From Schmidtea polychroa (Eukaryota), in the NCBI GenBank assembly GCA_044892525.1, contig CM097885.1, forward strand, positions 30,568,001 to 30,632,000: DNA of 64,000 nucleotides, written 5' to 3'. Below, one piece after another: positions 11,101 through 35,100 of this stretch. The translations under genes and the position numbers were made by a program. Positions within the stretch are counted from its first letter, which is position 1. Each line of letters starts with the position of its first letter. The notes below the pieces were generated by a model. It did not search any database. It was given only the letters and a program-made list of their open reading frames with translations, and was not told the origin of the DNA.

Positions 11101-14100
11101 CTTCGAAACCACTTTTCAACAATTTGTTTATCAAATTTATTCTGAAGTGTTTGAATAATTTTTCATTTTAATTTGTAAACATTTCTTAATTTAATATTAT
11201 AATAGAATATGAATATCACAATAAAATGAAAAGTTAAACAAATGTATTTAATAAAATATAATTTTCTTTTTGTTTGTAAAAATGTAATTTAATAATGTTT
11301 CTCAACCACATTTTATGCGAAAATCTTGAAATTATAAGTGGAGAGAAATGGAAACTGCACACATGTATGTTGTGTGATTGGCGGAGAATAAATAAATACA
11401 GATAAATAAATGATATTTTTTACAAGAAATTTTTTGAATAAAAAATAATATTATCACCGGTCCGCGTCAAAAAAATCAAGTATTTTGCGGCCCGCAATGT
11501 GTTTTGGTTGAGAAACACTGATTCAATACATTATTTTTAATAATCAAACTGAAATATTAAAGAAATATGTGAATTATCTAGCGATTTTTATTACAATTTT
11601 ATGCTATTTACGTTCACCAAAATATTGTTGTAAATATCACCTGTTCATCTTTGAGCTTTCAATGTCAATATTAGTAGGTAAACAGAATTATTTTGGTATC
11701 AAATAATTATTAATACAATTATTATTATTATTAATATTATTATTATTATATTTTTATTATTATTTTTTTTTATTATTATTATTTAAGATGATGTTTATTT
11801 TCAATATAATTATTCATTAGACAAGTACTTATTTTGATGATTTTAAATGTAAACTGAAATGTTTAAATTAAACATTTTCCACATGATCCGTAATCCGAGG
11901 GCAGCCAAACTAATAAGACATTAAGTTGGCTATTTACATTACTTCATCAATATGTTAAAATTATTCTGAATAATATTTTGTCATTTACTTTTCAAAAAAG
12001 ACATTATAGTATCAGTATTATTTTTTGTACAATTCAAAAAGATAGTAATTAAATTTTCAAATTAAAATGCTTCATCGCCTCAGTCAGATATTCCATCTTG
12101 GTTATTTCCTTATCGTTTTGTTCGGATAGAAATCGTTGTAAAATATATATATATATATATATATATATATATATATATATATATATATATATATATATAT
12201 ATATATATATATATATATATATATATATATATATATGATGAGGAAACAGTTGCACAAAACTGACATTTTTCCTTCATGGATCTATGAATTTGGACATTGA
12301 TACAATGGTTTTTCTCTTAATGATAGTTACATATTCAAAAGTTAAAGAAAGAGGTTTGTCCAAAAAATTTGGTAAATGATTGGGAACATGAGTAGGTAGT
12401 TAGTGGCGTACGGCAACAATAGGGGGGGGGGTGAAAAATGTTGCAACTTTTGATTGCATAATTTTTGCCGTAGACATTTTTTGATTACATAATTGTTGCC
12501 GCATGCCCAATGTTTTCTGGGATTTTAAATACAAAATTTTTTTTTTTCAATAAACAAGCCAAGGATAAATATTATTTGGGTGGGTCTCCTTGGTCCTGAG
12601 AATTTTAATAGAAAAAAGGTAGTCTTCAATAAAAAAGCATGGAATTTTCACACTATAGTGAGGGGATCTTCTTGGTCATAGGAATTTCAATAGAAAAGGT
12701 GGTTTACATTAAAAACGCATAGTAAATTTTTAAAATAAAGCAAATTATGGGTCTAAAATTTAAAAATAAAGTAAATGATGGGTCTAAAAAATTAAATTTA
12801 AGTAAATCAAGGTTCAGATTTTTTTTTGAAATAAAGTAAATTATGGTTTAAATAAGTAAATTATGGGCTAAGATTTTTGAATTAAAGTAATGAATGGGCT
12901 CAAATAACTAAATTAAGGTTCAAATTTTAAAATTAAAGTAAATAATGGTTCAAAATTTAAAATTAAAGTTAATTAAGGGCTCAACTAAGTAAATTAAGGT
13001 TCAAATTTTTAAATGGTTCTAAAAAAATTAAAATAAAGTAAATTAAGGTCCTAAAAAATTAAATTAAAGTAATGAATGGGCACAAATAACTAAATTAAGG
13101 TTCTAAAAAATTAAATTAATTAAGTTAATTAAGGTCCAAATTTTAAAATTAAGTAATCAATGGTAAAAAATTAAAGTTAAATAAGTAAATTAAAGTAAGA
13201 TTTTAAAATTTATTAACAAAATAATAGTAGGTGTTTGAGAATTGAAATTTTTTAATGAAAATTTTTATGAAATAATTTTTTAAGTAATTTTTAATAGAAA
13301 TTTTAATGAAATATTTTTCAATGGTAATTTTTAATGGAAATTTTATGAAATAATTTTTTAAGTAATTTTTAATAGAAATTTTAATGAAATATTTTTCAAT
13401 GGAAATTTTTAATGGAAATTTTTATGGAATAATTTTTAAGTAATTTTTAATAGAAATTTTAATGAAATATTTTCAATGGTAATTTTTAATGGAAATTTTT
13501 ATGAAATATTTTTCAATGTTAATTTTTAATGGAAATTTTTATGAAATAATAATAATAATAATAATAATAATAATAATAATAATAATAATAATAATAATAA
13601 TAATAATAATAATATTAATAATAAAATATCAACCAAATACTATACAACACATAAAAAATTAACTAAACACATAAAAATGAACTAGACACATAACAAACAT
13701 AAAAATTTACAAAACAAATAACAAATGTAAAGATATAAACTTTTATTTAATAAAATTAGTCCTCATCAGACAAAATAACGTCATCGATATCGATATCATC
13801 TTTCATGTAAAATTGTCGTTGAAAAAATTTTCATTTCTCAGGCGCCGTTTATAGTAGGTAGTTAGGAGCCCGCTGCAAATTGTTACCAATTTGTTCCAAC
13901 TCACGTTTTTTGCTTTTTCGATTACGCAATTGCGGCAACTTTTTTTTGTATTGAAAATCCTAGAAAAAAAAATAAGCGTAGCTTACTGCAACAATTACAT
14001 AACAAAAAATTTTTAAAAAAAAGTTGCCGCAATTGTTCCAGCGGGCTCCTAACTACCTATTATAAACGGCGCCTGAGAAATGAAAATTTTTTCAACGACA

Positions 14101-32100: not shown

Positions 32101-35100
32101 TATTTGATTTAATAATGGATGAATGTAGGAATTTAAATCTTGAATCTTTGTCTTATGAATACACTCTTGAAGTAAATCTTGTAATTCCTTCTGAGCTTCA
32201 TGATAAGTTGGATGATTTCCCTGTAGCTGCTGAAAAAATGAAACCTGCTGGGTCTAAGGTTGAAAAATTATTATTAACTCATCTTCCAAAATCTAATTAT
32301 GTGATTCATTGGAGATTATTAAAATTATATTTGGAACTTGGTGTTAAAGTAACACGTGTAAATAGGGGTGTAAGATTTAAGCAATCTCCAATTTTTAAAA
32401 AATATATAGATACAAATACCGAATTAAGATCAAAAAGCATAAATAACTTAGATAAAAATTATTATAAATTGCTAAATAACAGTTTATACGGCAAAACAGT
32501 TGAAAATTTAAAGAGAAGAATGAATCTTCGTCTTTGTACAACTGCCGGTAAATTAGTTAAATATTCGTCAAAACCGACTTTTAAAAAATCTATTAAAATA
32601 GCAGATAATTTAATCGCAGCACTATTGAATTCAGATTCTATATGTTTAGATAGACCAAGTTACATTGGTCAATCTGTACTTGATCTATCTAAACTTAGAA
32701 TGTATGAATTGCAATATAAGGATCTGGAATCATTTCGCAATGAGTTTAATTGTAAAATTAATATTGTTGCGGGTGATACAGATTCTTTTTTCCTCAAAGT
32801 CATTAACTGTAAACTTGAGATTCTTTTACCTGCAATGATTCGAGATAATTTATTAGATACTTCCAATTACAATAGTTGTCATTCCTTATATAGTAAGAAC
32901 CTTGATTCAGTCATTGGAAAGTTCAAAGACGAGAATAAAGGTCTTAAATATAAGGAATGGGTTTTTCTTAGACCTAAATGTTATAGCTTGTTGGGTGATG
33001 AGGAAACAAAAAAGGCTAAAGGTGTAACATTGAAAGGTAGTGACATAAAACATCAGTCATACCTGGATTGTTATAACACTAACCAGATTTTTTCGGTTCC
33101 TCAGACTAAAATAACAAGCAAAAATCATCAAATTTTTACAATTAAAAACACAAAAATAGCACTAACTAACAAAGATGACAAAAGGGTTTGGGTGGGGAAA
33201 AATACTAGTCTTGCATATGGGCATGTAAGATTAAGTGAATTAAATATTGGAGAAATTGTTGGAGAAGAATTTGATGAAAATGTTGGAGAAGATGAGGAAG
33301 AATTTAATGAAGAAGATTTTGGAGATTATGTTGGAGAAGATGATATCGATATCGATGACGTTATTTTGTCTGACGAGGACTAATTTTATTAAATAAAAGT
33401 TTATATCTTTACATTTGTTATTTGTTTTGTAAATTTTTATGTTTGTTATGTGTCTAGTTCATTTTTATGTGTTTAGTTAATGTTTATATGTTTTGTTATG
33501 TGTCTAGTTATTTTTATGTGTTTAGTTAATTTTTTATGTGTTGTATAGTATTTGGTTGATATATTATTATTATTATTTTTATTATTATTATTATTATTAT
33601 TATTATTATTTCATAAAAATTTTCATTAAAAATTATCTTAAAAATTATTCTATTAAAATTTCCATTAAAAATTATCATTGAAAAATATTTCATAAAAATT
33701 TCCATTAAAAATTACCATTGAAAAATATTTCATTAAAATTTCTATTAAAAATTACTTAAAAAATTATTTCATAAAAATTTTCATTAAAAATTTTCAATTC
33801 TCAAACACCTACTATTATTTTGTTTATAAATTTTAAAATCTTACTTTAATTTACTTATTTAACTTTAATTTTTTACCATTGATTACTTAATTTTAAAATT
33901 TGGACCTTAATTAACTTAATTAATTTAATTTTTTAGAACCTTAATTTAGTTATTTGTGCCCATTCATTACTTTAATTTAATTTTTTAGGACCTTAATTTA
34001 CTTTATTTTAATTTTTTTTAGAACCATTTAAAAATTTGAACCTTAATTTACTTAGTTGAGCCCTTAATTAACTTTAATTTTTAATTTTGAACCATTATTT
34101 ACTTTAATTTTAAAATTTGAACCTTAATTTAGTTATTTGAGCCCATTCATTACTTTAATTCAAAAATCTTAGCCCATAATTTACTTATTTAGACCATAAT
34201 TTACTTTATTTCAAAAAAAAATCTGAACCTTGATTTACTTAAATTTAATTTTTTAGACCCATCATTTACTTTATTTTTAAATTTTAGACCCATAATTTGC
34301 TTTATTTTAAAAATTTACAATGCGTTTTTAATGTAAACCACCTTTTCTATTGAAATTCCTATGACCAAGAAGATCCCCTCACTATAGTGTGAAAAATCCA
34401 TGCTGTTTTATTGAAGACTACCTTTTTTCTATTGAAATTCTCAGGACCAAGGAGACCCACCCAAATAATATTTATCCTTGGCTTGTTTATTGAAAAAAAA
34501 AATTTTGTATTTAAAATCCCAGAAAACATTGGGCATGCGGCAACAATTATGTAATCAAAAAATGTCTACGGCAAAAATTATGCAATCAAAAGTTGCAACA
34601 TTTTAACCCCCCCCCCTATTGTTGCGGTACGCCACTAACTACCTACTAAAATGGAGTGTAACTATTACATTTGTCTGCATGTCTTACAAATTTAGGCCAC
34701 CATAAAGCCAAAGGTTTACGAAAAGCAAATAAACATCAACTGTGAGTCAAAAATTAGCGAAGAAAAACAAAATTAATGTCGACGAAATCGGAGCTGTTCA
34801 TCGCCATCTATAAAATTATTTATATAAATATATGTAATTTATTGACCGCGTGTGGTAATTTGGTGAAAATAAATGTGAATTTACTCTTTTTCATTCATGG
34901 AATCAAACAAACTGTTTAGGAACGAATTTTTAGTTGCTTTAACTTTTGAGAGATTCTTTAGTGAATATTTCTTCACCAGCTCTTAATTTTTTACACTGTT
35001 TATTAGAAGAAGATTTAACTTTATTCATAAATTTATTCATAATTTAAGGAAAAGTTCAAAATTCTAAAACACTGTTTTATGATATTCAAATTCGTTAGTC

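What the first reader, a model, noticed from the sequence alone, without database searches (positions are those of the whole stretch)
12391..34647. Polinton-like element whose only gene is a protein-primed DNA polymerase: a candidate 'polymerase segment' of a divided system
Seen: AGTAG...CTACT ends, kb-long TIRs and a near-perfect 6-bp TSD. With nested element B removed, about 9.65 kb remain, and pPolB is the only recognisable gene. A second, divergent pPolB element (C) has the same gene-poor layout. Established: canonical Polintons also encode a retroviral-type integrase (which makes the 6-bp TSD), a packaging ATPase, an adenain protease and DJR capsid proteins. Inference: since the TSD flanks the present TIR pair, A probably integrated in this reduced form using an integrase supplied in trans. 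It may belong to a multipartite or helper-dependent system in which separately terminated modules (polymerase, integrase, cargo) replicate through shared ends.
Basis: partly seen in the sequence, partly recalled or inferred. Interest (0 to 1): 0.85.

Follow-up and report, generated by a model that had tools for sequence, protein, structure and literature searches.

The report
Mirror-image polymerase-only Polinton offshoots
This element is a damaged copy of a many-copy family of mirror-image mobile elements that carry only a virus-type DNA polymerase gene, once in each half, and that likely copy themselves by folding back while borrowing the insertion enzyme of complete Polinton elements in the same animal genome.

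Summary
The ends, TIRs, 5/6 TSD and lack of integrase or capsid genes are confirmed. A is not a one-gene segment. With B left out, 9,604 of 9,660 bases match an intact 16.5-kb palindrome with pPolB in each arm. A lost most of one arm at a junction unique in the genome, and its remaining pPolB is broken. A 5' marker of this lineage occurs 613 times; 60 of the first 100 sit in divergent pairs. C's intron-bearing pPolB (546 markers, 64 of 100 paired) and gene-less B (1,531; 68 of 100) are built the same way. Most fetched palindromes carry perfect 6-bp TSDs; empty sites confirm one insertion. Complete Polintons of the same family exist in over 100 copies, and so do their fresh left-half and integrase/capsid right-half palindromes. 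So this is a helper-dependent snap-back system rather than an obligately divided genome. pPolB shows purifying selection. Ten paper searches found no description. The scan had already noted gene-less palindromes in this and other genomes.

The parts
12391..34647 (.). Element A: decayed copy of a palindromic two-pPolB element, with the left arm mostly deleted and element B nested inside; flanks AACATG / AAAATG
12391..13802 (-). Stump of the left arm: terminus, subterminal tandem repeats and the last ~47 bases of an inverted second pPolB copy; ends at a deletion junction (2-nt overlap) found once in the genome
13801..14113 (.). Centre (turn) of the palindrome; holds a 209-bp mini-element 13853-14061 with inward-facing AGTAG-type ends flanked by inverted, not direct, sequence; homologous to the centres of L037/38, L039/40, L066/67 and L070/71
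14189..26785 (.). Element B: 12,597-bp gene-less palindrome with AGTAG ends and TSD TATATA; arms differ at 12 of 5,935 columns; member of a family with 1,531 marker matches
26786..29382 (+). Non-coding inner part of the right arm: terminal-type tandem repeats and a conserved block (28760-28900) shared by A-type, C-type and B elements but not found in the fetched full-length Polintons; promoter role inferred
29383..33383 (+). Protein-primed DNA polymerase B gene, broken by a frame change (~30474-30501) and a stop (31089-31091)
33337..34647 (+). Outer end of the right arm, ending in CTACT
40458..40808 (.). Central mini-element of element C, with B-type ends
40809..46622 (+). Surviving arm of element C: non-coding part, broken pPolB (~41890-45900) with at least three GT-AG introns, and the outer end; other C-type copies are two-armed palindromes

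Best explanation
A is an aged, one-arm-deleted copy of a family of 12-16 kb palindromic Polinton derivatives that carry pPolB in each arm and no other gene, likely made when the strand-displacing polymerase folds back and copies its own nascent strand, and likely inserted by the integrase of complete Polintons in the same genome. Shown: the palindromic layout, hundreds of copies, integration as whole units with 6-bp TSDs, no integrase, ATPase, protease or capsid genes inside them, complete helpers with the same type of ends, fresh half-genome palindromes of the helper, near-identical arms, and purifying selection on pPolB. Inferred: (1) During protein-primed replication the nascent strand switches template at a short inverted match, or at the TIR pair of an embedded mini-element. 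This gives a hairpin that becomes a duplex palindrome when copied from its terminal origin. (2) The displaced strand of a palindrome re-forms a duplex origin at once, so it is an efficient template, and repeated refolding keeps the arms alike. (3) The fused terminal-protein/polymerase ORF would make A- and C-type elements self-sufficient for replication but not for integration. (4) Once in the chromosome, long palindromes lose one arm by deletion, which gives A and C.
For: 9 of 9 divergent pPolB pairs fetched are palindromes, with arms of 5-8 kb at 98.8-99.5%. None of 18 A- or C-type elements has a hit to a non-polymerase Polinton protein. TSDs are perfect in 10 of 13 A-type, 5 of 5 C-type, 6 of 6 B-type, 3 of 4 right-half and 2 of 2 fresh left-half elements. 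8 of 8 paralogous empty targets of L037/38 carry one copy of the 6-mer followed by the right flank. Paired markers among the first 100 listed: A 60, C 64, B 68, full-length F 4. F-marker rows lie near a listed F capsid or integrase row in 40 of 46 cases, A-marker rows in 0 of 100, C-marker rows in 0 of 100. Turns in young F-derived palindromes are a 5-nt loop (L054), a 7-nt inverted match (L090), a 2-nt match (L088) and a double switch with a short hairpin (L056). Arms differ at 0-3 of 2,139 sites in 12 of 13 elements, against up to 107 between elements; both arms share the same breaks in L043/44 and L047/48. dN/dS is 0.07-0.27 between A-type subfamilies (dS up to 0.42) and 0.04-0.19 among C-type copies with long open frames. 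62 of the 107 best-scoring pPolB copies, full-length elements included, have open frames of at least 1,150 aa.
Against: No extrachromosomal DNA, protein-linked end or enzyme activity was observed. The polymerase core of L037 and L039 is only dS 0.02 from the full-length element, so some of the selection signal may have been imported by recombination with helpers. Gene conversion between arms after insertion could also equalise them. One element (L060) has arms differing at 24 sites. Gene-less B palindromes are more numerous than pPolB ones, so an own polymerase is not needed for success. Marker counts are exact-match lower bounds, pair fractions come from the first 100 rows on contig C1 only, and the fetched elements were biased to young copies. 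The terminal-protein domain is taken from the literature; only a conserved Cys (81 of 82) and His (82 of 82) of the presumed vOTU domain were checked.
Confidence: 0.78

Rival explanations
1. A true divided (multipartite) system: polymerase, integrase/capsid and cargo modules with shared ends that must complement one another; A is a polymerase segment.
For: pPolB-only, integrase/capsid-only (4 of 4 fetched) and gene-less palindromes all integrate with AGTAG ends. C-type pPolB is only about 53% identical to family F and 54% to family F2, and no full-length parent was found.
Against: Complete elements are abundant and young: 102 F markers, 93 identical integrase pieces, and a second family with at least 150 capsid genes. 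Right-half palindromes are rare (4 pairs in 150 rows) and nearly identical to F in coding parts, i.e. recent offshoots rather than a standing partner segment.
Confidence: 0.08
2. The palindromes are passive hitch-hikers. They are formed and copied entirely by helper proteins (or by host fold-back repair of excised DNA), and their pPolB stays intact only because it is repeatedly refreshed from helpers or is young.
For: Polymerase cores are exchanged with F. Gene-less B does well without pPolB. Many copies are broken (45 of 107 best-scoring rows have frames under 1,150 aa).
Against: C-type pPolB has no helper counterpart found, keeps conserved GT-AG intron ends while intron lengths vary, and shows dN/dS 0.04-0.19. 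A-type subfamilies differ from F by dS up to 0.51 in the N-terminal part, with dN/dS about 0.1.
Confidence: 0.12
3. The palindromes are assembly or amplification chimeras.
For: Inverted chimeras are a known artefact of strand-displacement amplification and of assembly (own knowledge).
Against: Different perfect TSDs at each locus. Empty paralogous sites match exactly. Asymmetric centres are shared between loci. Arms diverge with age (A 3.5%). Full-length elements in the same assembly are mostly not palindromic.
Confidence: 0.02

Closest known systems
Polintons / Mavericks (PMC6431247 passages; PMC8097293 passages)
   Same: AG/AGT-type ends, TIRs, 6-bp TSD, pPolB, size near 15 kb. The helper F carries protease-like, major and minor capsid-like, rve integrase and A32 ATPase genes.
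   Different: A- and C-type elements are one end of the genome duplicated as a palindrome, with two pPolB copies and none of the other core genes. C-type pPolB and the F integrase carry GT-AG introns, whereas intact vertebrate Mavericks are described as intronless.
Snap-back defective genomes of AAV, 5'-SBG and 3'-SBG (PMC8235507, abstract and section 3.1)
   Same: Self-complementary molecules made of either the left or the right part of the genome, symmetric or with a single-stranded loop.
   Different: AAV snap-back genomes are packaged by-products of a small ssDNA virus. Here they integrate into chromosomes with TSDs, reach hundreds of copies and form lineages with their own diverged polymerase.
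Palindromic derivatives of terminal-protein replicons: phage phi29 in vitro, yeast pGKL hairpin plasmids (recalled; the phi29 paper was not held)
   Same: Inverted duplication of one end, attributed to template switching by a protein-primed polymerase.
   Different: Those are short extrachromosomal or test-tube products. Integrated, heritable, gene-bearing families were not seen in my searches.
Cytoplasmic linear plasmids and transpovirons (10.1101/2024.03.18.585575 passages; 10.64898/2026.10.13.758929 section 13)
   Same: Replicons derived from Polinton-like ancestors by loss of capsid genes; the TP-vOTU-polymerase fusion is shared with cytoplasmic plasmids.
   Different: These elements are chromosomal and palindromic and have no integrase. 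The second paper says its pPolB modules were consistently paired with DDE integrases.

Membership tests
Polinton/Maverick (autonomous) | TIRs with AG/AGT-type ends | tested here: met
Polinton/Maverick (autonomous) | 6-bp target-site duplication | tested here: met
   A 5 of 6; relatives perfect in 10 of 13; empty sites
Polinton/Maverick (autonomous) | Protein-primed PolB | tested here: met
   PF03175; broken in A, open with catalytic motifs in relatives
Polinton/Maverick (autonomous) | Retroviral-type integrase | tested here: not met
   no hit in A or in 18 relatives; present in helper F
Polinton/Maverick (autonomous) | Packaging ATPase, protease, major and minor capsid proteins | tested here: not met
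   In F the ATPase is confirmed by Pfam; the capsid and protease labels rest on recalled motifs and gene order, with no Pfam hit for the capsid ORFs
Snap-back defective genome | One genome end duplicated as a self-complementary molecule | tested here: met
Snap-back defective genome | Derived from a coexisting standard genome | tested here: met
   direct for L052-L059 and L088-L091; A-type 89-93% nt to F over pPolB but with a foreign inner part; no parent found for C-type
Snap-back defective genome | Needs a helper for at least one step | tested here: inconclusive
   inferred from TSDs without an own integrase; which enzyme acts was not shown
Snap-back defective genome | Packaged in helper capsids and interferes with the helper | not testable with these tools
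   sizes of 11.7-18.1 kb against 17.1 kb for F are only suggestive
Multipartite / segmented virus | No single molecule carries all essential genes | tested here: not met
   complete F and F2 elements
Multipartite / segmented virus | Segments share terminal sequences | tested here: met
   AGTAG ends in all classes; identical ends in F and its half-palindromes
Terminal-protein linear plasmid | Extrachromosomal linear DNA with protein-blocked 5' ends | not testable with these tools
   bench test needed
Terminal-protein linear plasmid | TP and vOTU domains fused to pPolB | tested here: inconclusive
   conserved Cys and His pair; the fold prediction never returned; atlas hits unnamed

The most novel reading that the evidence does not exclude
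Snap-back products of Polinton replication have become heritable satellite replicons: self-replicating, polymerase-only giant palindromes that parasitise only the helper's integrase and perhaps its capsid. They swap ends, centres and polymerase cores with helpers and with gene-less palindromes. At least one lineage (C, intron-bearing) has outlived its parent virus. With integrase/capsid-only palindromes arising alongside, the genome would record a segmented virus in the making and give a genomic record of protein-primed strand-displacement replication by animal Polintons.
Probability: 0.4. Interest if true: 0.88.

Novelty: new variant of a known kind. Interest (0 to 1): 0.74.

Why it matters
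How Polintons replicate and transpose in animals rests largely on a model. Integrated left-half and right-half palindromes with mapped turn points are the products predicted for a terminal-protein-primed, strand-displacing polymerase, so they make that model testable from sequence and with simple snap-back DNA assays. They show defective-genome dynamics fixed in a germ line, a route from a virus to a polymerase-only satellite. Hundreds of 12-16 kb palindromes are also a likely source of genome instability and of repeat-annotation errors.

Tried and rejected
Single-gene segment reading of A: rejected. Decayed integrase or capsid genes at 27760-28980: none found. Alternative genetic code for the stops: not needed, since relatives have open frames under the standard code. 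Empty-site test for A itself: its flank is single-copy, so no test was possible. Family F2 as parent of C: rejected, pPolB 54% identical (the middle of that output was cut, so I saw 8 of 10 loci in full or in part). Expression: no RNA holder listed. Contigs of four runs of uncertain type covered the C-type 5' region; no splice joint was listed, one contig end in X1 fits splicing of the third intron, and other contigs read through predicted introns, so there is no verdict. Structure prediction of the pPolB N-terminal part never finished, so no fold search was run. Atlas hits were unnamed. Protein homologues (1,563) and 7 metagenome loci were unnamed or too short to show architecture. Script crashed after its difference table; dN/dS was rerun. 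Paper searches listed no report of whole-element palindromic Polintons. The library lacks most subscription papers and Repbase entries, no supplements were read, and Kapitonov and Jurka 2006 and the phi29 paper were not held. The Halocafeteria preprint describes only 52-nt terminal palindromes (passages). The host taxon was not established by any search; flatworm terms in searches were a guess.
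Full report
OBSERVATION. The window lies on contig C1 of a 781-Mb AT-rich eukaryotic assembly, G000. Element A runs from AGTAG at 12391 to CTACT at 34647, between AACATG and AAAATG. Its ends are inverted repeats of about 1.3-1.4 kb. Element B (14189-26785) is nested in it with a TATATA duplication, and 9,654 bp remain without B. 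The only gene is pPolB (PF03175), in three pieces: a frame change near 30474-30501 and a stop at 31089-31091. Proteins of two complete Polinton families from the same genome find no other gene remnant in A, B or C at E 0.1.

WHAT A BELONGS TO. A search of the genome with A's polymerase gave 13,808 first-look candidates. The 107 scored were 97-100% identical, and many lay as minus/plus pairs 7-18 kb apart. All 9 pairs fetched are palindromes with arms of 5-8 kb at 98.8-99.5% identity and a pPolB ORF in each arm. Of 7 apparently single rows fetched, 3 were further palindromes, 1 was a palindrome with one arm deleted, 2 were full-length Polintons and 1 was a rearranged element. With B left out, 9,604 of A's 9,660 bases align to the intact palindrome L037/38. 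The right arm matches over 26802-34647 at 90%, and 13801-14189 is the centre. The left arm breaks off at 13802 and joins the centre over a 2-nt overlap; this junction occurs once in the genome. A marker for this lineage's pPolB 5' end has 613 exact matches, and 60 of the first 100 form 30 divergent pairs. Of 20 unpaired sites fetched, none had a cognate integrase, ATPase or capsid interior. Two had decayed capsid fragments of another family nearby (50-78% identity), and 14 showed an inverted remnant of a second pPolB with different breakpoints. A is therefore an older copy (arms 3.5% diverged, against 0.2% for B) that lost one arm.

THEY ARE REAL INSERTIONS. Perfect 6-bp TSDs flank 10 of 13 A-type elements; one is 5 of 6, one has inverted flanks because it lies in a larger refolded composite, and one end fell outside the fetched span. 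Four TSDs over all classes lie in AAT/ATT repeats and weigh less. For L037/38, 8 of 8 paralogous targets read (57 pattern matches in all) carry the 6-mer once, followed by the right flank at 39-40 of 40 bases. This makes an assembly chimera very unlikely.

THE SAME PLAN IN C AND B. C's pPolB is about 53% identical to the full-length family's. It has three well-supported GT-AG introns whose ends are conserved while their lengths vary. 76 of its 103 best relatives lie in 38 divergent pairs. Its marker has 546 matches, and 64 of the first 100 are paired. Of 8 C-type loci fetched, 4 are complete palindromes of 12.6-13.7 kb and the rest are partial; 5 of 5 with both ends have perfect TSDs. B's marker has 1,531 matches, 68 of the first 100 paired. 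6 of 6 fetched are gene-less palindromes with perfect TSDs and interchangeable ends. The centres of many A- and C-type elements hold a short mini-element with inward-facing AGTAG ends of B-type or F-type, flanked by inverted rather than direct sequence.

HELPERS EXIST. L049/50 is a 17,077-bp element (family F) with a TTAGTT duplication. It carries pPolB, an rve integrase with a short GT-AG intron, an A32-type ATPase, a TBP-like gene, and ORFs that I read from recalled motifs and gene order as protease and capsid genes. 93 copies of its integrase piece are identical, and its marker has 102 matches with only 2 pairs in the 100 listed. On C1, F-marker rows lie within 10 kb of a listed F capsid or integrase row in 40 of 46 cases, against 0 of 100 for A-type and 0 of 100 for C-type markers (those lists hold only the best 102 and 150 rows). 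A second complete family has at least 150 capsid genes, and its pPolB is 54% identical to C's. F also throws off fresh palindromes of either half: 2 of 2 left-half pairs fetched (17.4 and 18.1 kb, both with TSD) and 4 of 4 right-half pairs with integrase, ATPase and capsid genes but no pPolB (3 with TSD).

MECHANISM. The young F-derived palindromes turn at a 5-nt loop, a 7-nt or a 2-nt inverted match, or through a double switch with a short hairpin. This is what a polymerase that leaves its template and copies the nascent or displaced strand would leave (inference; the precedent in phi29 and yeast linear plasmids is recalled). An embedded mini-element supplies a ready TIR pair for the same turn. 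Arms of one element differ at 0-3 of 2,139 sites in 12 of 13 cases (24 in L060), while elements differ by up to 107. Arms are therefore re-equalised, by refolding or by gene conversion. Polinton pPolB is reported to include its terminal protein and a vOTU protease (10.1101/2024.03.18.585575, passages). In an intact arm a Cys and a His are conserved in 81 and 82 of 82 aligned sequences, and the exonuclease and polymerase motifs are present. One ORF would thus suffice for replication. dN/dS is 0.07-0.27 between A-type subfamilies and 0.04-0.19 among C-type copies with long open frames, and it rises in decayed copies. Against a simple reading, the core of some A-type polymerases is only dS 0.02 from F, so recombination with helpers may import part of this signal, and gene-less B thrives without a polymerase. 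Integration needs an integrase in trans, most simply from F or F2, whose ends are of the same AGTAG type (shown for F; inference for the enzyme). All classes measure 11.7-18.1 kb, near helper length, which hints at packaging; but 0.8-kb and 2-kb AGTAG elements with TSDs also lie in the window.

COMPARISON AND NOVELTY. A fails the membership test for an autonomous Polinton, and it fails the test for a multipartite virus because complete genomes exist. It works like a snap-back defective genome, as described for AAV left-half and right-half forms (PMC8235507, abstract and section 3.1), but it is integrated, heritable and diversified. Ten full-text searches listed no description of whole-element palindromic Polintons. 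The nearest items were 52-nt terminal palindromes and proposed mobile replicase modules, with pPolB said to be paired with integrase. Kapitonov and Jurka 2006, Repbase and most subscription papers could not be read, so prior mention there is possible. Earlier AI notes of this scan report gene-less palindromes in this genome and two others, and one mentions polymerase-carrying relatives. I reached the reading before looking, and treat those notes as leads only. Added here: two pPolB-only palindromic lineages under selection, integrase/capsid-only palindromes, fresh products with mapped turns, and the empty-site proof.

VERDICT. A real feature and a new variant of a known kind. Confidence is about 0.9 that A is a decayed two-pPolB palindrome dependent on a helper integrase, and 0.78 for the whole account including fold-back origin and an active own polymerase. 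Interest 0.74.

Noticed in passing
window 58049-58824 and 60553-62536: Two small AGTAG-ended elements with perfect 6-bp TSDs (CTGAAA, ACTGGT); the first shares ends with C-type elements, the second shares sequence with central mini-elements.
   Followed up: partly
window 48834-49088: TBP-like fragment, 53% identical to the TBP-like gene of full-length family F, outside A and C.
   Followed up: no
L050:4540-4720: The family F integrase is split by a short GT-AG intron; the same 207-aa frame recurs in 149 of 150 rows.
   Followed up: partly
L049/50 and L112-L131: Both full-length families carry a short TBP-like gene head-to-head with the ATPase.
   Followed up: no
L090:8569-9714: A 382-aa cargo ORF with a Cys/His-rich RING-like start (motif recalled) in both arms of a fresh left-half palindrome; part of it lies at the centre of right-half palindromes.
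   Followed up: partly
L043/44: An A-type palindrome inside B-arm sequence with inverted flanks and no TSD, suggesting that a composite element refolded.
   Followed up: partly
L039/40 and L120/21: Polinton-type elements inserted into other pPolB genes, suggesting frequent nesting.
   Followed up: no
window 9085-9447 and 63362-63943: A weak Mos1-type HTH hit below the Pfam cut-off, and a 193-aa frame without a Pfam hit.
   Followed up: no
window 55291-57337 and 38659-38852: Further short inverted-repeat elements not examined.
   Followed up: no
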